Positions 2,482 to 14,148 of a stretch of 14,223 bases of DNA are shown here, piece after piece. Both the position numbers and the translations under genes were made by a program. The DNA is taken from UHGV virus genome UHGV-0168750; one strand, written 5' to 3'. The DNA is from a virus. How positions within the stretch are numbered: position 1 is the first letter of the stretch; each line of letters starts with the position of its first letter. The notes below the pieces were generated by a model. It saw only the letters and a program-made list of their open reading frames with translations. It was not told the DNA's origin and did not search any database.

Positions 2482-3003
2482 GTGATAGCGAGACTTGCGA
2501 GTTGGTTTAAGCAACGTCGGGCAAAGGCGGTCGAATGGCCGCCTATTACGCACGATGAAAAGGTGGTTGCTTTTCTGAACTATAACAAAGACTTGAAGAG
2601 ATTGGGCGAAATAATGCGCCTAAAGGAAACCCAAGTCTTTGCTAAGATTTCAAGTAGTGCTTTACGTAAACAAGTATTTCCCCACCTATCCTTTTCAGGG
2701 CAAGTTTATGCAATAACCGCAGAGAAATTTTTATCGATGGCGGGCAATGAAACCCCACGCATACGGTTCTCGGCTACAGATTCATCTGATGCGGTCGGTA
2801 CAGTTGATTTCGGACGATTCTATCGATGCATTAAAGACGTGGGCCATATACATGTTAAACGGGTATCAGAAACATCTGTAGTGATTTATCACCGTACTGA
2901 GAATGATTTGTTAGGGCGTGTTATAACGTTAACGAATTTACATAGTTTTTACGTTGATTTACTCACTGAGTTTTATCCAGAACCATGGTGTTTTATACGA
3001 TGA
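2482..3003 (+). CDS. Hypothetical protein (173 aa), GTG start
   Basis: GTG at 2482 lies 2 nt after the upstream TAA, preceded by AGGAAGAGGA; stop TGA overlaps the next ATG (ATGA at 3000-3003). Confidence 0.55.
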   Translation: MIARLASWFKQRRAKAVEWPPITHDEKVVAFLNYNKDLKRLGEIMRLKETQVFAKISSSALRKQVFPHLSFSGQVYAITAEKFLSMAGNETPRIRFSATDSSDAVGTVDFGRFYRCIKDVGHIHVKRVSETSVVIYHRTENDLLGRVITLTNLHSFYVDLLTEFYPEPWCFIR

Positions 3004-3212
3004 ACAGAGCTAATGGATATATCATCTCGGCAATTGTTTCAACCGTGCTGATTGTGACGATGTTGATGTTTTATGTCCGTGTGTCAGATGACTCACGCAA
3101 AGAAAGCCTTTATCGTGAATGTATGTCGGGAACGACTGTGGACAATCCGCGTTACAGCGAATTGGTAATGGCGTGCACAGAACATGCTAAGCTAATGGGA
3201 GATGGCCGATGA
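3000..3212 (+). CDS. Small membrane protein (70 aa) with one N-terminal transmembrane helix
   Basis: ATG at 3000 in an ATGA overlap; hydrophobic stretch YIISAIVSTVLIVTMLMFYV followed by a charged tail. The ORF-track start at 2985 is rejected because it overlaps the upstream gene. Confidence 0.5.
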   Translation: MNRANGYIISAIVSTVLIVTMLMFYVRVSDDSRKESLYRECMSGTTVDNPRYSELVMACTEHAKLMGDGR

Positions 3213-3406
3213 AGATTTGGTTACCGATTGTAGCTTTTGTTCTTATTGCGGGCGCACTAGCAAGTGCCGAGTGTGACAATCGTGTTTTAGAAAAGAAAAG
3301 CGAATTGTATCAGGATTGCATAAAGGACTACACACCCGGTACAGAGCTTCATGCGCAGGCTGTAAAAAGTTGTGCGCTGATGGCTGAATCGCAGACTCGT
3401 TCCTAA
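3209..3406 (+). CDS. Small secreted or periplasmic Cys-containing protein (65 aa) with a signal-peptide-like N-terminus
   Basis: MKIWLPIVAFVLIAGALASA then ECDN; four Cys in the mature part; ATGA overlap with the upstream gene. No canonical lipobox. Confidence 0.5.
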   Translation: MKIWLPIVAFVLIAGALASAECDNRVLEKKSELYQDCIKDYTPGTELHAQAVKSCALMAESQTRS

Positions 3407-3780
3407 TGCGTATCTGGACGTTACAGCTTGCTAAGTGGCGGTTAGCGAAATCGAAGGGATTTTACGCGGTAGATATTACAGTCAAATCAGGGCGAAAGGA
3501 ACTCGCCCCCGACTGGGATTTCTTAATGGCGTATAAAAACTCCACAAAGGACGCAACTGCTGAAGCCGACTATACCGTAAAGTATCTTTACAAGCTTGAA
3601 CGATTACTGGACTCAGATGCCGAAGTGTTGGTATCGTTACTTAGGCACGAAGACCTGGTGCTGATGTGTTATTGTCCCGCAGGTAAGTTTTGCCATCGAC
3701 ACTTACTGGCTAAGAAACTTCAAGACGTCGGAATGATGTTCGGTTTTGACGTTGAGTTATGTGGAGAATTAACGGACTGA
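3406..3780 (+). CDS. Hypothetical protein (124 aa) with a C-x-C-x6-CHR motif; possibly DUF488/YeaO-like
   Basis: TAATG coupling; motif LVLMCYCPAGKFCHRHLLAKKL near the C-terminus. Family assignment is from memory of the DUF488 pattern, not a search. Confidence 0.5.
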   Translation: MRIWTLQLAKWRLAKSKGFYAVDITVKSGRKELAPDWDFLMAYKNSTKDATAEADYTVKYLYKLERLLDSDAEVLVSLLRHEDLVLMCYCPAGKFCHRHLLAKKLQDVGMMFGFDVELCGELTD

Positions 3781-3807
3781 TTCGATTTTTAGATGTAAAA
3801 TGACCTT

Positions 3808-3852
3808 CTACCGCCCGATTCTATGGGCGGTAGGTGTTTTTATTTTTTTTTT
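3808..3852 (+). terminator. Rho-independent terminator closing the upstream small-gene block
   Basis: Perfect 9-bp stem CTACCGCCC (3808-3816) / GGGCGGTAG (3825-3833), 8-nt loop, then a T-rich run (3835-3852) including ten consecutive T. Confidence 0.65.
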
Positions 3853-3868
3853 GATCTGGGAGGTTTTA

Positions 3869-4429
3869 GTGGCCACTTACGTACCTGATTTAAGCCTGAC
3901 CTCAGCCGAATTAGTGGTCGCTTTAATCAACCACGATAACGGTTCACAGTTGTCTTTAAGAGAAATTCGTATTAGCAACACTGTGGTAAACCCGTCTCCG
4001 ACCACTTCGCGTCGTAACACACTGTCAGAGATTACAAAAATCAGGAAACCTGACGGTGCTTCTGTGGTTGTTTATTACGATCGCTTAGATGCGGAAGAAG
4101 TATTAGCTTCTGAACCTATTTTGATTTCGTTAGACGGTACTGAAGATAACATTCGTGACATTTTAGATGTTGTAAATGAATTCTGCGGAACGAACTTACA
4201 GCCTGACGATTTGCGCGCTTCAGATATCACATTAGGTAACGATCCCATTGCTGTTAACGTTGCTGACGATTCTCCTGCGTGGATGAATGCGTTTATGGTG
4301 ACGTTATTCGATACAACCGAACGAGCATTAGCCAACGAAGAAGACGCGATCTTCTGTATTGGCGATGTTGCTGTTCTTACATTTGAGGTTCCAGATGGCG
4401 ACTCAGCTGAAGAAAACCCGACTACATGA
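3869..4429 (+). CDS. P1a: conserved small protein (186 aa), paralogue of 13013-13528; likely tail-fibre-associated
   Basis: GTG at 3869 preceded by GGGAGG (3858-3863). N-terminus VATYVPDLSLTS..LINHD matches MGQFVPDLSLTS..LINHD of the paralogue; shared motifs KIRxP, YYxRLxAE, CG(T/S)NLQP(D/E)DL, VLTF. The ORF-track start at 3800 lies inside the terminator hairpin. Confidence 0.6.
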   Translation: MATYVPDLSLTSAELVVALINHDNGSQLSLREIRISNTVVNPSPTTSRRNTLSEITKIRKPDGASVVVYYDRLDAEEVLASEPILISLDGTEDNIRDILDVVNEFCGTNLQPDDLRASDITLGNDPIAVNVADDSPAWMNAFMVTLFDTTERALANEEDAIFCIGDVAVLTFEVPDGDSAEENPTT

Positions 4430-4856
4430 ACTTGACAGTTTTACCGGTGACCCACAGGGCGGGGTATTACTGTTTAGTAAAGAGAATAAAGAATACAAAA
4501 TTAACGCCGAACAGTTACTACCAACGAACACCGTAACTACGGTAAACGGTGCTGACGGCACGGCAACGATTAATCCAAATAACGTTACTGACGTTATACT
4601 GGTATTAAACGATCCTGCGACAACCTTAACTATCTCCCCGTTAACGGAAGCCAAAGCAAACGTTCGGGTTGAGTTTTATTTAACCGTTAAGCAAGGAACA
4701 GGGGCGAATAAGATTACTTGGCCGGATAATGTAAAATGGCCACATAACGCAACTCCTGTTTTGTCCTTTACAGCTAATGCGGAAGATACATTAGCGTTCT
4801 ATACGCTTGATGGTGGGACTACGTGGAAAGGTTCCCTCATCGCCGCAGGTTACTAA
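4395..4856 (+). CDS. P2a: small protein (153 aa) carrying the shared N-terminal module (putative virion-docking domain)
   Basis: ATG at 4395 preceded by GAGGT; residues 5-40 KKTRLHELDSFTGDPQGGVLLFSKENKEYKINAEQL align with the N-termini of the long fibre and of 13528-14148. Overlaps P1a by 35 nt. Confidence 0.6.
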   Translation: MATQLKKTRLHELDSFTGDPQGGVLLFSKENKEYKINAEQLLPTNTVTTVNGADGTATINPNNVTDVILVLNDPATTLTISPLTEAKANVRVEFYLTVKQGTGANKITWPDNVKWPHNATPVLSFTANAEDTLAFYTLDGGTTWKGSLIAAGY

Positions 4857-7864: not shown

Positions 7865-7883
7865 CCCGCTTATAAAAAAAAAT

Positions 7884-7905
7884 GGGGGAGCATTCTACCT
7901 CCCCC
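7884..7905 (+). promoter_or_regulatory. GC-rich hairpin in the intergenic region upstream of the long tail-fibre gene
   Basis: GGGGGAG (7884-7890) / CTCCCCC (7899-7905) with an 8-nt loop, preceded by TATAAAAAAAAA (7871-7882); only a short T run follows, so a weak terminator or RNA stability/processing element. Confidence 0.3.
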
Positions 7906-7938
7906 GATCTTTTAGCTCCCGATAGAGAATTAAATATC

Positions 7939-10900
7939 ATGGCTAAAGCGGTCAAGAAAATACGTTTGCACGATTTACGTCCTTACGCCGGTGATATCGG
8001 TGAAGGCGTTTTGCTTTTTTCGAAAGACGAAAAAGATTATCAATTACCAGTCCGTGAGATCGTTGCTGATATTGACACCGTAAGGAACGCGGTTGCTGAT
8101 GCACAGTCCGCAGCAGCACAATCACAACAGTCGGCCACAGAAGCAACACAAGCAAAAGATTTAGCGGAAACCGCGAAACAGCAGGTTGACACTACCGCAT
8201 CAACTGTTAGCGAACAAGCACAAACGGTAGCAACAAAAGCGGCTGAGGTCGGCACAAAACATGCCGAAGTTTTAGCAGCAAAAACAGCAGTAGACACTGT
8301 TTTACAGTCGGTGAACGAAAAGGCTCAGGCCGTCTCTGCGAGTGAAAAAGCAGTCACAACAGCCGCCGCCGACGTAACGAAGAAAGCAGAAACTGTTACC
8401 CAGCAAGCTGGTCAAGTTCAACAGTCAGTCACTAGCATCACTGAAATTGCGGCAACTGTTGAAGCCAGTAAAGGCGCTGTGGAAGCTACTGCTGTACAAG
8501 TTACGAAAGACAAAGAATCCGCAGAAGGGGCAGCGACGCGTTCAGAAGCTGCTGCACAACGTGCTGAAGACATCGCTGCACAGGGGTTAATTGACGCCAC
8601 TACAGCTAACAAGGGTATCGTTAAACTTAATAATACCCTAACCAGTGATTCAGTAACGGAAGCGGCTACACCGTCGACAGTGAAGCAACTGAACGACGAG
8701 CTGCAATTAAAAGCCAACAAGCACTCACCGAACTTTACGGGGCAGCCGTCAGCACCAACACCTCCGAAAAATTCTAATGATACCAGTATTTCGACTACTG
8801 CGTGGGTACGTGCAGCTATCGCTGAATTAGTCGGTTCTTCTCCTGAAACGTTAGATACCTTAGCGGAATTAGCCGAAGCGCTGGGTAATGATCCTAACTT
8901 CGCAACAACGATTACTGAGAAACTTGCGCAGAAGCAACCTATCAGTCCGTTACTCACTGCAATCGCTGCGGTTACGACAGCGGCAAATAAACTCCCGTAT
9001 TTCACCGGCACTAATAAAGTCGGGTTAGCCGATTTTACAGAAACCGCCAGAACGTTATTAGCGAAAGGTTCAACAACCGAAATCATTGAGTTTTTAGGAT
9101 TAAAAGCCACCGTAGATAAAGCGAATGGCGCATTACAGAAAAACTCTAATGGTGCTGATATTCCAGATAAAGAAACATTTGCCCGCAATATTGGTCTGTC
9201 TCCTGACACTTATCTGCGTTTCCGTGGTGAAATGCCAACTGATGCGGATATCAACACTTTCGCCCCAGATACCAACTACACGGGTACGTGGTCGAAAGCA
9301 ACCTCGACCAACGCGACAATGGCAAAACACTTTCCAGAAGACGGTGCGGTCGGTTATCTGGAAGTGTATAAAGCGGGTAACTATAGCGGTGCACAACGTT
9401 TTACCTGTCGTAATGGTAACGTCTATAACCGTATGTTGTCAGGTGTGTGGAACGGCACTAATGGCCCGTGGTCACCGTGGAGAATGGTAACTACCGGTGT
9501 ACGTCCACTGGCTACATCAATTGACCTGAACTCCTTAGGCGGTGCCGAACACATGGGTAACTGGCGAAACTCGTCCAGTTCGTTGGCTACCTTTGCTAAC
9601 CACTACCCGGAAGAGGGCGGTGCTGCTCAAGGTGTTTTGGAAGTCATGGAAGGCGGTCTTTACGGACGTTTACAACGTTACACTACTCGACGTGGTACGA
9701 TGTATGTTCGTGGTTTGACGGCGACGTGGGATTCTACTAATCCGCAATGGGAAGATTGGATTCAGGTAGGTTATCAAACCGACGGCGCGTATTACAAAGG
9801 AAACTTCGATAACCTGACTAAACCAGGTCGTTTCAGCGTCACTGGAGAAGCCACGAATGGTCCCCTTACAGGTCCTTCGGGTGAAACATTGTTGGGTGTC
9901 TGTGCAGTTACTGTACGTTTAGACGGTACAGGGATCGAACAAACCTACACCACGCACGGTACAGGTGCGGAGTACAAAGGTCGACGTTTCCACCGTATTC
10001 GTACGGGTAATGTCTGGACGCCGTGGCGCGAGATTTACGACTCGAACAGTTTAGCCATGTTGTTAGGGGTCGGCGGCGAACGTGCGAATGTTGATCCTTT
10101 AGACTGGCAAACCTACGACTTTAAACCGGGTGAATTAATCTGTACGCCACTTAATACCATGAAAAACATTCCTGCGGGAATGGATTGGGGTGTTATCGAC
10201 GGTAATTTAATTAACATCCTGGTTGGGCCATCTGATGGCGCTACGTCAGGTCGAAGTATGTTGGTTTGGCGTAGTACGGTGTCTACCGCCAACTATCGCT
10301 TCTTTGCAGTACGTATCGCCGGTGAGAAGGGTAGCCGTACGATTACGCCACGACAAATGCCTGTGTTGAATGCGGCGCACACTTGGACAGAGAAACAGAC
10401 CTTTGCAAAAGGCTTGTCGGGCGAATTAACCGGTAATGCTTCAACCGCAACCAAATTACAAACTGCCCGGAAAATCGGTGGCGTTGGGTTTGACGGTAGT
10501 GGTGATATTAACCTCCCAGGCGTAAACCAACAGGGTAATCAAAACACCACGGGTAATGCCGGGACAGCCACTAAACTTCAAACCGCCAGAAATATTAACG
10601 GCGTGAGATTCGACGGTTCTGGCGATATTAATATCAACACCCTGGTAGGTCGTGGTCGGGTTACAGCTCTAACCGGCTCAGCGAAAGGTACACCTGGTAT
10701 CCAGATGTACGAAGTTTACAATAACGGTTATCCGACCGCTTATGGTAACTTACTACATTTAGGTGGTTCTACAGCTGTAGGCGAAGGCGAACTGTTAATC
10801 GGTTGGTCAGGTACTAACGGCGCACACGCCCCAGTGTTTATCCGTAGTCGTCGCGACAATGCGGAAGCACCATGGTCGGACTGGGCACAGGTATACACCG

Positions 10901-12441
10901 CCCGCGATAGCATCCCAGGGGTAAACGCGACTGGTAATCAAGATACTACCGGTAACGCGGCTACCGCGACGAAGTTGAAAACCGCTCGCAAAATTGGCGG
11001 TGTGAGCTTTGATGGTACTGGGGATATCAATTTACCGGGGGTTAACCAGCAAGGCAACCAGAATACGACAGGTAATGCAGCAACCGCTACCAAGTTACAA
11101 ACCGCAAGAACCATCAATGGTGTTGCGTTTGACGGCACTAAAAACATCGAAATAACGGCTGAAAGTTTAAATCTTGGTCAAACCGTAGAATTGGCCGGTG
11201 GGTCATTGCAGAAAAACCAGAACGGCGCAGATATTCCTGATAAGGGTCGCTTCCTGAGTAACATTAATGTTTACAGCAAAGGCGAGGTGGATGAGAAAAA
11301 AGGAATGCGGCAGTACGTATTTAACGCGCCGTCTAATGCCGTTGGCGGAAAGTGGTATCCAGTTATTTTCCGGCGTTCCACTGGTAGCACCGGCGAACTG
11401 GCTTCCAGAGTAGTTATTACAACTACATCTGCCGGTGGCGATTACGCAATGAATAACTGCGAATTCAATGGAACGGTAATGGCGGGCGGTTGGACTGATC
11501 GCGGTTCATACGCAGCAGGGTATTTTTCGATATATCAGACTAATGAGCGCGCAATCCATTCCATTGTAACAGGTGTGAAAGATGATGATGTGTGCAGCGT
11601 TTTTTACGTCGAAGGTAGGGCTTTCCCTATTCGAGTTTTTGCCGAAGAAGGGTTATCGGTTAGTGTTCCGACCCAGAATTATACCGTCGGTCAAACAACC
11701 TATAAGTGGGGAGCAACTAATCCTGCGACAGAAAGCACGAACGCACAAACCATTTTGGATTTTAACAATGGACGAGGATTTTATTGTTCCCATTCAATAT
11801 TCGCTATTAATAGTATTTTAAGCGGTAATCTGGGTATCGGTACCGCGAATGCTTTAGGTGGGAATTCCATAGTTTTAGGGGATAATGACACCGGTCTTAA
11901 ACAGAATGGGGACGGTATTCTAGATGTCTATGCCAACGGTCGACATGTATACCGTTTTCAAAACGGCATTGCTATTGCTCTTTATGGTGTTCAGGCTGGT
12001 AACGGTAAAAAACTTTCGTTAACTAGCGCAAACAATTCCACGTTGAATGCGGGTCTTAACATTTGGGGTAACTCTTCGCGTCCAACTGTTGTAGAACTCG
12101 GTGATGACGCAGGCTGGCATTTTTATAGCCAACGAAACACCGACAACTCGATATCGTTCGCCGTTAATGGGCAAATTCAACCGGGAAACTGGAGTAATTT
12201 CGATTCCAGGTACCAAGCACGGTCAGGAGTTGTCCAGGATGTTCGTTTCGGTGGTCAAAGTTATCATAACCCCGGGAGTAATACGACCTCTTGGAATTTC
12301 TCCGCTCCAGGTGGTCATTGTCTTACTGGTATTTCTATATCGGATACTGGCAAAAACTCGGCAGATAACGTTAACGGTGTTTATTATCGCCCGCTACAAA
12401 AATTGGTTAATGGTACTTGGTACAACGTCGCGTCGGTATAG
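7939..12441 (+). CDS. Long tail fibre protein (1500 aa)
   Basis: N-terminal shared module [36 protein letters not shown]; Ala/Gln/Thr-rich coiled-coil-like region; tandem ~75-aa domains; four copies of the tail-fibre repeat TGNAxTATKLxTARxIxGVxFDGSGDI; C-terminal [13 protein letters not shown]-type motif; followed by a Tfa chaperone gene. The ORF-track start at 7882 lies inside the hairpin. Confidence 0.85.
9247..10038 (+). repeat. Three tandem ~75-aa domain repeats inside the fibre (a fourth diverged copy at about 10640-10897)
   Basis: Each unit ends in a Trp-rich motif: [38 protein letters not shown], and in the fourth copy [12 protein letters not shown]. Protein-level periodicity; the nucleotide sequences are diverged. 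Confidence 0.45.
10432..10636 (+). repeat. Pair of tail-fibre sequence repeats (~33 aa each) inside the fibre gene
   Basis: [69 protein letters not shown]; the T-A-T-K-L...FDGSxDI pattern is the classical phage tail-fibre repeat shared by T-even and lambdoid side fibres. Confidence 0.7.
10933..11154 (+). repeat. Second pair of tail-fibre sequence repeats
   Basis: [74 protein letters not shown]; same motif as 10432-10636 with many synonymous differences, so an old duplication. Confidence 0.7.
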
Positions 12442-12974: not shown

Positions 12975-13012
12975 CCAGCTTGAAACTTCTCTGAAAATTG
13001 GAGGTAAGCTTT

Positions 13013-13528
13013 ATGGGGCAATTCGTGCCGGATTTGTCACTGACCTCACCTAACATGGTTATTTCGTTGATCAATCACGACCTTCAGCTTGATCTGCAAG
13101 AAACCGATGTTGAGTTTAGCGAACTAAAATCTAGCGACACGATGGATCGTGACACCACTGCTGTTGTAAAGATTAGACGTCCTGGTAACAGAACGTTACA
13201 AATCTATTACAACCGTTTAACCGCAGAACGTTGGTTAAACCAGCAACCTATTCTGGTGCAAGTAACTGGCGAGGGGTTTAGCACACACGATTTAATCGAC
13301 GCGATTAACGCAGCCTGTGGCAGTAACCTGCAACCCGAAGATCTTCAGGACGATTCATTTACAGTAGGAAAAGACGCTGTAACGTTACAGGTATCACCTA
13401 ACTCCCTAAGTTATAAAGGCCAATTCTCTGTTTTGGTTTTTGGTAACGGCGAAGAAGCCGCGGTAACAAAAGACGACAACTTAATTGTTACCGCAGATAA
13501 TCGTGTCTTAACCTTCGGAGGTCAATAA
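13013..13528 (+). CDS. P1b: conserved small protein (171 aa), paralogue of 3869-4429
   Basis: ATG at 13013 preceded by TGGAGG; N-terminus MGQFVPDLSLTS..LINHD and internal motifs shared with P1a; stop TAA overlaps the next ATG (TAATG at 13526-13530). Confidence 0.65.
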   Translation: MGQFVPDLSLTSPNMVISLINHDLQLDLQETDVEFSELKSSDTMDRDTTAVVKIRRPGNRTLQIYYNRLTAERWLNQQPILVQVTGEGFSTHDLIDAINAACGSNLQPEDLQDDSFTVGKDAVTLQVSPNSLSYKGQFSVLVFGNGEEAAVTKDDNLIVTADNRVLTFGGQ

Positions 13529-14148
13529 TGGCTGAATTGGTAGGAAAGGTACGTGTTCACGAACTGCCGTCGCTTTCAGAAGACATCACGGGTGTAGTAG
13601 TCTTAGCGTCTAAGGAACAAACCGAATATCAACTCCCGATTGAGAATTTAGGGGGTGGCGAGGTTACAGTGAGTCCGTCAGCGAATAACATCCTTAAGTC
13701 TAACAGCGATGGACTGTTTGTTGACGGCGCACATCCTATTATACCGAAAATGGATGCAAAAACCTTATCGGGAAATATGGTGGTAGAAAAAACGCTGACA
13801 GGTGGCGCGGTAATCTGCAAAACAATGGTTGACGTTAATAATAGGCTGGGGATTTCGCAATTATCTGGAGTGTCAATTTATAGCCAGTGCCTGCTGGAAA
13901 ATAAATTGGTTTACCTGGCAGAAGACGGCAGTATTATTGATGCGTACTTCTACATCAGTAATACAAAAACCACTGCCAGTACAATAACGCACACTATTCG
14001 GGTTGTGTTAGCGAAGATACCTTCTAAAGTTATTGATATCACCGATTTGTCTGAAACTGAGGTGCAATACCAGGATGGTAATCTACCTGTTAAGATCGTT
14101 ATTAAACATCTTGTGGGTACAACACTTTCTCAGAATGGGATGAAATAG
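13528..14148 (+). CDS. P2b: protein (206 aa) carrying the shared N-terminal module; putative second short fibre or receptor-binding protein
   Basis: Residues 6-41 GKVRVHELPSLSEDITGVVVLASKEQTEYQLPIENL align with the N-termini of P2a and the long fibre; the C-terminal ~165 aa are unrelated to both. Confidence 0.65.
   Translation: MAELVGKVRVHELPSLSEDITGVVVLASKEQTEYQLPIENLGGGEVTVSPSANNILKSNSDGLFVDGAHPIIPKMDAKTLSGNMVVEKTLTGGAVICKTMVDVNNRLGISQLSGVSIYSQCLLENKLVYLAEDGSIIDAYFYISNTKTTASTITHTIRVVLAKIPSKVIDITDLSETEVQYQDGNLPVKIVIKHLVGTTLSQNGMK

What the first reader, a model, noticed from the sequence alone, without database searches (positions are those of the whole stretch)
3000..3406. Adjacent pair of tiny envelope-targeted proteins
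A 70-aa protein with one N-terminal transmembrane helix is followed, through an ATGA overlap, by a 65-aa protein with a signal peptide and four Cys. The pairing resembles a membrane and periplasmic two-component arrangement (spanin-like, superinfection exclusion or receptor-masking), but both are smaller than typical spanins and the second lacks a lipobox.
Basis: inference. Interest (0 to 1): 0.45.

Follow-up and report, generated by a model that had tools for sequence, protein, structure and literature searches.

The report
Paired tiny periplasmic jumbo-phage proteins
Two real, overlapping genes of an SPN3US-like jumbo phage encode a membrane-anchored and a secreted mini-protein that are diverged copies of a widespread but uncharacterised family of small phage envelope proteins; they are not spanins and their function is still unknown.

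Summary
ORF A (3000-3212, 70 aa) has one N-terminal hydrophobic helix. ORF B (3209-3406, 65 aa) has a Sec-type signal peptide ending ASA|EC. They share an ATGA overlap and are under purifying selection (dN/dS 0.07-0.39). One detail is wrong: B has three Cys, not four, and only two are conserved.

The new point is that A and B look like paralogues. Each carries a helix-loop-helix module with two invariant Cys 17 residues apart. Syntenic relatives are SPN3US gp116 (membrane anchor) and gp118 (signal peptide). In Derbicusvirus phages the counterpart is an overlapping pair of lipoproteins with Asp at +2, an inner-membrane retention signal.

These link to a large family of about 390 clusters of small phage and prophage lipoproteins (PHROG 10627, function unknown). 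With export signals trimmed, A matches that family well (hhalign 92.5%) and B weakly (43%).

The spanin reading fails: there is no lipobox, the periplasmic domains are about 44 aa, and the endolysin-like gene lies 20-30 kb away. Family members elsewhere sit among early or accessory genes and near prophage integrases, never next to lysis genes.

My best guess, which is an inference, is an accessory function at the periplasmic face of the inner membrane, such as superinfection exclusion. Interest is modest.

The parts
3000..3212 (+). ORF A, 70 aa: predicted type II signal-anchored inner-membrane protein with a 44-aa periplasmic tail (orthologue-like to SPN3US gp116)
   Evidence: sequence, hydropathy; 33 homologues, same length; dN/dS 0.07-0.16; signal-trimmed hhalign to the broad family: 92.5%, E 4.8e-7
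3021..3077 (+). Hydrophobic helix of A (residues 8-26, IISAIVSTVLIVTMLMFYV); no -3/-1 cleavage site follows it, so it is taken as an uncleaved anchor
3120..3176 (+). Cys41...Cys59 of A (C-x17-C), invariant in all homologues; core of the helix-loop-helix module
   Evidence: aligned to the family's two invariant Cys
3209..3406 (+). ORF B, 65 aa: secreted periplasmic mini-protein (45-aa mature form), probable paralogue of A (counterpart of SPN3US gp118)
   Evidence: 52 homologues; dN/dS 0.08-0.39; similarity to A, E 3e-4 to 1e-3; AF2: helix-loop-helix, domain pLDDT about 81
3209..3268 (+). Sec-type signal peptide of B (MKIWLPIVAFVLIAGALASA), with predicted SPase I site ASA|EC
   Evidence: -3/-1 rule; homologue gp118 has AHA|AD
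3317..3373 (+). Cys37...Cys55 of B (C-x17-C), invariant. Cys22 (3272-3274) is not conserved.
3197..3201 (+). Shine-Dalgarno GGGAG, 7 nt upstream of the B start; conserved as GGGAGG in relatives
2482..3003 (+). Upstream 173-aa orphan ORF. Its stop overlaps the A start (ATGA 3000-3003). No Pfam or PHROG match, and not homologous to SPN3US gp117.
3406..3780 (+). DUF488-N3a gene, translationally coupled to B (TAATG 3404-3408); last gene of the unit
3807..3852 (+). Intrinsic-terminator-like hairpin (11-bp stem at 3807-3834, then T-run 3837-3852). It closes the unit that holds A, B and DUF488, and is conserved in relatives.

Best explanation
**Shown**
- A and B are two expressed-looking, translationally coupled genes at the 3' end of a transcription unit (...230-aa, 173-aa, A, B, DUF488, terminator) in an SPN3US-related jumbo phage.
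- Each product is an export signal followed by one small helix-loop-helix module with two invariant Cys spaced by 17 residues.
- A keeps its signal as an uncleaved inner-membrane anchor. B has a cleavable Sec signal and is released into the periplasm.
- A is a diverged member of a large family of small phage and prophage proteins, mostly lipoproteins (PHROG 10627, function unknown). B is probably a member too.
- Related jumbo phages keep a pair of such genes at the same place, but with different anchors: TM plus signal peptide in Seoulvirus, and two Asp+2 lipoproteins in Derbicusvirus.

**Inferred**
- The Cys pair is oxidised in the periplasm to staple the hairpin.
- The site of action is the periplasmic face of the inner membrane or the periplasm.
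- Family members in other phages lie among early, accessory or DNA-metabolism genes and next to prophage integrases, not in lysis cassettes. I therefore read the pair as an accessory host-envelope function made before late genes.
- The most likely such function is protection of the infected cell against secondary infection, by blocking passage of incoming DNA or ejection proteins, or a tail-borne wall-degrading enzyme, at the inner membrane or periplasm.
- The pair is not part of outer-membrane disruption at lysis.
For: - Real genes: same lengths and overlaps in 52 and 33 homologue clusters; dN/dS 0.07-0.39.
- Topology: hydropathy and an A-x-A site. The syntenic homologues are SPN3US gp118 with a signal peptide (AHA|AD) and gp116 with a TM anchor. 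In Derbicusvirus they are CR5_125/126, EarlPhillipIV gp126/127 and Phobos gp127/128, which have lipoboxes followed by Asp.
- Paralogy and family membership:
  - blastp A vs B, E 6e-4.
  - hhalign of the syntenic set vs A, 79%, and vs B, 70%.
  - An independent HMM from 140 distant family representatives hits A (E 0.0018) and B (E 0.0026) among 4270 six-frame ORFs, with noise starting at E about 0.8.
  - Signal-trimmed hhalign: A 92.5% (E 4.8e-7), B 42.9% (E 2.5e-4); reversed controls 0.1-2.9%.
- Family size and identity: 390 clusters at E<=1e-3; PHROG 10627; 113 of 141 have a lipobox, and Asp is the commonest +2 residue; the two Cys are invariant.
- Context elsewhere:
  - Of 129 neighbour proteins from about 35 IMG/VR loci (129 proteins, two genes each side), the top PHROG matches are DNA methyltransferase, exonuclease, transposase and helicase. 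No endolysin, holin or spanin is among the 25 listed of 92 matched families.
  - Prophage copies lie near integrase, HNH and Lar-like genes.
  - Pseudomonas and Xanthomonas phage copies lie among small hypothetical genes.
- Separation from late genes: a conserved terminator at 3807-3852. Endolysin-like genes lie 20 kb away in NZ_CP173450.1 and about 30 kb away in SPLA3.
- Fold: AF2 gives a helical hairpin for B and beta-alpha-loop-alpha-beta for the family (pLDDT 77.5).
Against: - No experiment, expression-timing data or annotated homologue exists, so the exclusion function is inference from localisation and gene neighbourhood only.
- B's membership is weak. With signals trimmed, the HMM scores B in the noise (E 1.1-2.2). 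The PHROG library itself does not match A or B at E<=0.01.
- Positive-inside charges around A's helix are ambiguous.
- Holin and spanin genes of this phage clade were not identified by my crude scans, so a lysis-related role cannot be excluded on the ground that those roles are already filled.
- The only functional lead, EexN entry-exclusion lipoproteins, turned out to be a signal-peptide artefact.
Confidence: 0.4

Rival explanations
1. Lysis-timing regulators. The pair would act as periplasmic or membrane-tethered antiholin-like sensors, comparable to T4 RI, binding the periplasmic part of a holin to delay lysis (lysis inhibition).
For: - Same size class and topology as T4 RI: an N-terminal signal or anchor plus a small helical periplasmic domain containing Cys (the T4 RI features are from my own knowledge).
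- T4 rI is also not adjacent to the holin gene, so distance from the endolysin is not decisive.
- phiKZ-like phages show delayed lysis at high multiplicity of infection, and the phiKZ holin has a small periplasmic domain (PMC12894885).
- The hydrophobic segments of A and B are rich in Ala/Gly/Ser/Thr.
Against: - No sequence or profile similarity to any lysis protein.
- Family members in other phages and prophages are not next to holins or endolysins.
- The pair sits in a unit with nucleotide and DNA-modification type genes and is followed by a terminator.
Confidence: 0.15
2. Host-envelope takeover factors. The mini-proteins would bind and modulate a host inner-membrane or periplasmic machine (for example wall synthesis or division, Tol-Pal, or the flagellar stator or rod) for the benefit of the infection, rather than excluding other phages.
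For: - Periplasmic, inner-membrane-proximal localisation.
- Early or accessory gene neighbourhood.
- Breadth of the family across Proteobacteria phages with different receptors.
Against: No candidate target, and no similarity to known inhibitors. With the present data this reading is indistinguishable from the exclusion hypothesis.
Confidence: 0.15
3. Periplasmic inhibitor of a peptidoglycan hydrolase, as T4 Spackle inhibits the gp5 lysozyme. The pair would neutralise the tail-associated or endolysin muramidase of incoming or own virions.
For: - A small secreted helical protein with Cys, similar in outline to Spackle (Spackle features are from my own knowledge).
- The phage clade encodes a GH108 muramidase-like protein.
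- A DUF1311/LprI lysozyme-inhibitor-family structure (3gi7) appeared among Foldseek hits for B, but at a non-significant E of 4.1.
Against: No significant structural or sequence match to Spackle, Ivy, MliC/PliC or LprI.
Confidence: 0.1
4. Miniature two-component spanin, with A as the i-spanin and B as the o-spanin, fusing inner and outer membranes at lysis.
For: - Adjacent genes with a 4-bp overlap; the first has an N-terminal TM and the second is exported.
- No spanin pair was recognised elsewhere in the 50 kb of a close relative that I scanned.
Against: - B has no lipobox.
- The periplasmic parts are about 44-45 aa compact hairpins, too short to bridge the periplasm.
- Lipoprotein homologues have Asp at +2, meaning inner-membrane retention.
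- The pair is 20-30 kb from endolysin-like genes.
- SPN3US separates the two genes with gp117.
- Family members in other phages are not in lysis cassettes.
Confidence: 0.03

Closest known systems
PHROG 10627 (uncharacterised small phage lipoprotein family; includes Cronobacter phage CR5 gp125 and Erwinia phage Phobos gp127)
   Same: Export signal, a linker of 10-15 residues, then [LIF][FY]xxC, a loop and xxV(V)xxCxxxA with two invariant Cys. Syntenic position in SPN3US-like phages. Signal-trimmed hhalign to the family: 92.5% for A and 43% for B.
   Different: A and B have no lipobox (TM anchor and SPase I signal instead). Their loop is shorter (C-x17-C against C-x21-23-C). They lack the PKGPE...NDWxEVV signature and the terminal beta-strands. 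The PHROG HMM does not reach them at E<=0.01.
SPN3US gp116 and gp118 (hypothetical proteins)
   Same: Same genomic neighbourhood, between the 230-aa gp115 homologue and the DUF488 gene. One is TM-anchored (gp116, C-x17-C, 69 aa) and one is secreted (gp118). A resembles gp116 in length, anchor and Cys spacing.
   Different: The two genes are separated by gp117 in SPN3US but overlap in the window. gp118 is 110 aa with C-x21-C and a C-terminal extension. Pairwise BLAST is weak (A vs gp116, E 0.015) or finds nothing (B vs gp118).
T4 Imm and Spackle superinfection-exclusion pair
   Same: The working analogy is one small inner-membrane protein plus one small secreted periplasmic protein made by a virulent myovirus, acting at the envelope (T4 facts are from my own knowledge).
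   Different: No detectable sequence, profile or fold similarity. Imm has two TM segments. Imm and Sp are not paralogues of each other. The function of A and B is untested.
EexN / TrbK entry-exclusion lipoproteins of conjugative plasmids (NCBIfam NF033894, TIGR04359)
   Same: Tiny lipoproteins whose mature part holds two conserved Cys flanking a Pro-Gly loop. Family members score just below threshold against NF033894 (31.3 bits against a cut-off of 33).
   Different: The similarity disappears once signal peptides are removed: 14 bits or nothing, and hhalign 1.3%. The Cys spacing differs (x12), and tblastn finds no match in plasmids. This is an analogy only.
Two-component spanins (lambda Rz/Rz1; phiKZ gp141/gp141.1)
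   Same: Adjacent, overlapping genes; the first product has an N-terminal TM and the second is exported.
   Different: No lipobox, no long coiled-coil periplasmic domain, no outer-membrane sorting in the lipoprotein homologues, and not in a lysis cassette.

Membership tests
Two-component spanin | o-spanin is an outer-membrane lipoprotein (lipobox, no inner-membrane retention signal) | tested here: not met
   B ends its signal with ..LASAEC, which is not a lipobox. Its Cys22 is not conserved. Lipoprotein homologues have Asp at +2.
Two-component spanin | i-spanin has an N-terminal TM plus a long, coiled-coil periplasmic domain able to span the periplasm | tested here: not met
   The TM is present, but the periplasmic tail is 44 aa and predicted to be a compact helix-loop-helix.
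Two-component spanin | Gene pair adjacent, overlapping or embedded | tested here: met
   ATGA overlap at 3209-3212. In SPN3US, however, the homologues are separated by gp117.
Two-component spanin | Located with holin and endolysin in a lysis cassette | tested here: not met
   The GH108 endolysin-like gene is 20 kb away in the close relative NZ_CP173450.1. Annotated endolysins are about 30 kb away in SPLA3. Neighbours of family members elsewhere show no lysis genes.
PHROG 10627-like small phage envelope protein family | Two invariant Cys in a [LIF][FY]xxC ... xxVVxxCxxxA helix-loop-helix | tested here: met
   A has SLYRECM...ELVMACTEHA and B has ELYQDCI...QAVKSCALMA. Both align to the family's two invariant Cys.
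PHROG 10627-like small phage envelope protein family | Significant profile similarity outside the export signal | tested here: inconclusive
   A is met: hhalign 92.5%, E 4.8e-7; mature-only HMM E 0.004-0.046. B is weak: hhalign 42.9%, E 2.5e-4; mature-only HMM in the noise. The PHROG HMM gives no hit for either at E<=0.01.
PHROG 10627-like small phage envelope protein family | Lipoprotein signal (lipobox) and PKGPE...NDWxEVV loop signature | tested here: not met
   113 of 141 family representatives have a lipobox. A and B do not. B keeps only P-G-T-E in the loop.
PHROG 10627-like small phage envelope protein family | Synteny with family members in related jumbo phages | tested here: met
   The pair lies between the gp115 homologue and the DUF488 gene, as do SPN3US gp116/gp118, Asesino gp134 and the Derbicusvirus lipoprotein pair.
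EexN / TrbK entry-exclusion lipoproteins | Match to NF033894 or TIGR04359 above the curated cut-off, in the mature region | tested here: not met
   The best full-length score is 31.3 bits against a cut-off of 33, and only for distant family members. A and B give no hit. Mature-only scoring gives 14.3 bits or nothing. Signal-trimmed hhalign gives 1.3%.
T4 Imm / Spackle superinfection exclusion | Sequence or fold similarity to Imm or Sp | tested here: not met
T4 Imm / Spackle superinfection exclusion | Expression blocks DNA entry or tail lysozyme of superinfecting phage | not testable with these tools
   Needs plating-efficiency and DNA-entry assays with cells expressing A, B or both.
Antiholin (T4 RI-like) | Binds the periplasmic domain of the cognate holin and delays triggering | not testable with these tools
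   The holin of this clade is not identified. No sequence similarity to lysis PHROGs.

The most novel reading that the evidence does not exclude
A and B are the jumbo-phage, lipobox-less representatives of a very large family of disulfide-stapled periplasmic mini-(lipo)proteins of Proteobacteria phages and prophages. The family holds about 390 clusters at 50% identity, is entirely uncharacterised, and has a fold with no solved analogue. On this reading it forms a new class of inner-membrane-level entry or superinfection-exclusion factors. It would be a functional analogue, but not a homologue, of plasmid EexN/TrbK, with SPN3US-like phages needing a heteromeric pair.
Probability: 0.25. Interest if true: 0.6.

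Novelty: new variant of a known kind. Interest (0 to 1): 0.3.

Why it matters
If the function were established, it would annotate hundreds of "hypothetical" small phage and prophage proteins at once. It would also add a new fold to the short list of phage proteins known to act in the periplasm.

For SPN3US-type jumbo phages, which are therapy candidates against Salmonella and E. coli, an exclusion or envelope-modifying pair would bear on cocktail design and on the carrier state suggested by their presence in isolate assemblies.

As it stands, the result is mainly a clean-up. The spanin idea is removed, the two genes are shown to be real and probable paralogues, and they are tied to a catalogued but unstudied family.

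Tried and rejected
1. **Spanin.** Rejected on the absent lipobox, domain length, Asp+2 in the lipoprotein homologues, and distance from the endolysin.
2. **EexN/TrbK entry-exclusion homology.**
   - NCBIfam gave near-threshold hits, and hhalign with full-length sequences gave 94%.
   - After trimming signal peptides the signal vanished.
   - tblastn of a family member against 72,556 plasmids found nothing.
   - Rejected as a signal-peptide artefact.
3. **Structure-based annotation.**
   - Foldseek/PDB on the AF2 model of B gave nothing better than E 2.4.
   - The DUF1311/LprI hit (E 4.1) is not significant.
   - The afdb50 library was unavailable.
4. **Pfam, PHROG and NCBIfam on A and B directly.** No hits.
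5. **tblastn of A and B against 50,697 phage genomes.** Only chance hits.
6. **Homology of the upstream 173-aa ORF to SPN3US gp117 or Asesino gp131.** None.
7. **Literature on SPN3US gp116/gp118.**
   - Only one mention: gp118 as a possible detached end of gp117 (PMC5694885).
   - No expression or mutant data for these two genes in the one paper read for them (PMC5694885); the other papers returned by the searches were not opened for them.
8. **Locating holin and spanin genes of the clade near the endolysin.** Crude hydropathy and lipobox scans found only a 159-163-aa lipoprotein and a 30-aa TM peptide. Unresolved.
9. **The search for related loci on genome contigs with the family alignment.** A degenerate DNA pattern scan gave 49 hits, of which only 5 are true family members.

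Full report
**1. What is in the sequence**

The window is a stretch of a jumbo phage distantly related to Salmonella phage SPN3US.
- The 230-aa protein at 1787-2479 is 62-64% identical to SPN3US gp115 and its Seoulvirus homologues.
- The downstream genes are a DUF488 protein, a virion structural protein, tail-fibre proteins and a 1013-aa tail protein, in the same order as in SPN3US.

ORF A runs from ATG 3000 to TGA 3212 (70 aa). ORF B runs from ATG 3209 to TAA 3406 (65 aa).
- The ATGA overlap at 3209-3212 is real.
- A further ATGA (3000-3003) couples A to the upstream 173-aa ORF.
- A TAATG junction (3404-3408) couples B to the DUF488 gene.
- B is preceded by a GGGAG Shine-Dalgarno at 3197-3201.

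A has a single 19-residue hydrophobic segment (residues 8-26) with no small-x-small site after it. B has a classical n/h/c signal peptide ending ASA|ECD.

There are three, and Cys22 is Y/S/L/N in relatives. The conserved ones are C37 and C55 in B and C41 and C59 in A, in both cases 17 residues apart.

**2. Are they genes?**

Yes.
- The big protein database returned 52 clusters for B and 33 for A, all 73-97% identical and nearly all of the same length. Most sit on 220-230 kb contigs from Salmonella, E. coli and Shigella assemblies or metagenomes.
- In three independent relatives the 70-aa and 65-aa genes keep the same 4-bp overlaps.
- Nei-Gojobori dN/dS is 0.07-0.16 for A and 0.08-0.39 for B, at dS up to 1.8.

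**3. The two proteins are related to each other and to a larger family**

A and B align over the Cys module: blastp E 6e-4 and hhalign E 1e-3.

At the syntenic position other phages carry similar genes.
- SPN3US has gp116 (69 aa, TM anchor, C-x17-C) and gp118 (110 aa, signal peptide AHA|AD, C-x21-C), separated by gp117.
- Erwinia phage Asesino has gp134.
- The Derbicusvirus phages CR5, EarlPhillipIV and Phobos have an overlapping pair of lipoproteins (LAGC|D.., LTAC|D..) with the same [FY]xxC...C module.
- Profiles of these syntenic proteins match the A family (hhalign 79%, E 1.5e-5) and the B family (70%, E 3.9e-5).

An exhaustive profile search of 1.84 billion representatives found 390 proteins at E<=1e-3.
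- They are 70-130-aa proteins, mostly lipoproteins, with the signature DQxxRxxiFxeCLxxiPkGPe...NDWdEVVxxCxxxA.
- They correspond to PHROG 10627, function unknown.

Signal peptides can create false similarity, as the EexN test in section 5 shows, so I repeated the tests with export signals removed.
- The periplasmic part of A matches the family's mature profile at 92.5% probability (E 4.8e-7, both Cys aligned; reversed control 0.1%).
- Mature B reaches only 42.9% (E 2.5e-4; reversed control 2.9%) and is in the noise with a mature-only HMM.

A is therefore a confident, very diverged member. B is a probable one, supported additionally by its similarity to A, by synteny and by the conserved pairing. 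I put B's membership at roughly 0.6.

**4. Where they act**

All versions carry an export signal, but the anchor varies: an uncleaved TM, a cleavable signal peptide, or a lipobox.
- In the enterobacterial Derbicusvirus phages both lipoproteins have Asp at +2. By established Lol-sorting rules this retains lipoproteins in the inner membrane.
- Asp is also the commonest +2 residue across the family (24 of 113).
- Together with the invariant Cys pair, this places the module in the periplasm, at or near the inner membrane.

**5. What they are not**

*Spanin.*
- B lacks a lipobox.
- The periplasmic parts are about 44 aa.
- The homologous lipoproteins are inner-membrane-retained.
- The nearest endolysin-like gene is far away. 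A GH108 gene lies 20 kb downstream in NZ_CP173450.1, a 79.8%-identical relative. Annotated endolysins lie about 30 kb downstream in SPLA3.
- The experimentally defined phiKZ lysis cassette (gp141/141.1/142/143/144; PMC12894885) has no counterpart here.

*Outer-membrane receptor masking.* This is unlikely for the same localisation reasons. In addition, a conserved intrinsic terminator (stem 3807-3834, T-run to 3852) separates the A-B-DUF488 unit from the tail-fibre module.

*EexN/TrbK entry-exclusion lipoproteins.*
- NCBIfam gave near-threshold hits to family members.
- Full-length hhalign against ten real EexN sequences that I collected from plasmids gave 94%.
- The signal vanished once signal peptides were trimmed.
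- I reject homology and keep only the analogy.

**6. What they most likely do**

Gene neighbourhood is the only functional evidence.
- In 71 IMG/VR loci the family gene lies in runs of small genes. Its +/-2 neighbours (129 proteins) match DNA methyltransferases, exonuclease, helicase and transposase. No lysis family appears among the 25 listed of 92 matched families.
- In bacterial genomes the five true members lie in prophage accessory regions near integrase, HNH and Lar-like genes.
- In Pseudomonas and Xanthomonas phages they lie among small hypothetical or nucleotide-metabolism genes.
- In this phage the unit upstream contains thymidylate kinase, an HTH protein, an acetyltransferase and a Dam-type methylase.

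This is the signature of an accessory, probably pre-late, host-interaction gene.

A periplasm-facing, inner-membrane-proximal accessory protein of a virulent myovirus is most simply a superinfection-exclusion or envelope-protection factor. The working analogy is T4 Imm plus Spackle. The conserved pairing of two paralogues suggests they act together.

I give this reading about 0.4. The rivals are:
- lysis-timing control (0.15);
- modulation of a host envelope machine (0.15);
- inhibition of a wall hydrolase (0.1);
- spanin (0.03).

All steps beyond topology and family membership are inference.

**7. Novelty and verdict**

The family is catalogued (PHROG 10627) but unstudied. A and B are lipobox-less, short-loop variants that standard libraries do not recognise.

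This is a new variant of a known but uncharacterised kind. Interest is modest (0.3). It would rise if the family proved to be a general inner-membrane exclusion system.

Noticed in passing
window 3800-3871: The mechanically listed ORF 3800..4429 begins inside the terminator hairpin. The real start of the DUF7941-type virion structural gene is GTG 3869, behind the Shine-Dalgarno GGGAGG at 3858-3863. Hairpin, T-run and start are conserved in L003 and L006.
   Followed up: yes
whole window; NZ_CP173450.1 (L152); contigs listed: This phage clade has no relative at about 85% nucleotide identity or more among 50,697 deposited phage genomes. It does occur as a 221,873-bp circular 'plasmid' in a complete E. 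coli genome, and on 220-230 kb contigs in many Salmonella, E. coli and Shigella isolate assemblies. This suggests a carrier state or pseudolysogeny, or phage DNA co-purified with isolates.
   Followed up: partly
NZ_CP173450.1 55523-55719 (L152 48523-48719): The RefSeq (PGAP) annotation of the close relative calls the B homologue but leaves the A homologue unannotated; there is a gap where the 70-aa gene lies.
   Followed up: partly
window 11071-11793 (inside the 1519-aa tail-fibre gene 7882-12441): A segment is 79-82% identical at the nucleotide level to tail-fibre genes of P2-like phages (Peduovirus) and of P1/P7. This points to exchange of a receptor-binding region between this jumbo phage and temperate coliphages.
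   Followed up: no
window 3869-4856 and 12998-14148: The module 'DUF7941 virion structural protein plus small tail-fibre protein' occurs twice, flanking the large tail and tail-fibre genes. The N-termini are paralogous (..VPDLSLTS.. and ..RVHELPS..).
   Followed up: no
L001 8002-8816 (SPN3US gp117/gp118): PMC5694885 suggested that gp118 might be the detached C-terminal part of the protease paralogue gp117. gp118 has a canonical Sec signal peptide (AHA|AD) and belongs to the small Cys-pair periplasmic family, which makes that suggestion unlikely.
   Followed up: partly
L009 7757-7924 and 9996-10214; L011 8902-9105 and 12072-12284: Erwinia phage Asesino (gp133, gp138) and Salmonella phage SPAsTU carry small proteins with two TM segments (55-72 aa) in the same region, next to the gp118 homologue. 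They are possible holin-like or other membrane proteins and are absent from the window.
   Followed up: no
L152 26248-26727; L092 48524-49015: A conserved 159-163-aa lipoprotein (LASC|A / LAGC|V, not Asp+2) lies within about 2 kb of the endolysin-like genes in both the close relative and SPLA3. It may be worth testing as an outer-membrane lysis component.
   Followed up: no
window 3406-3780: A DUF488-N3a gene is translationally coupled to B. It is conserved next to the small-protein locus in Seoulvirus, Erskinevirus and Derbicusvirus. Its function is unknown.
   Followed up: no
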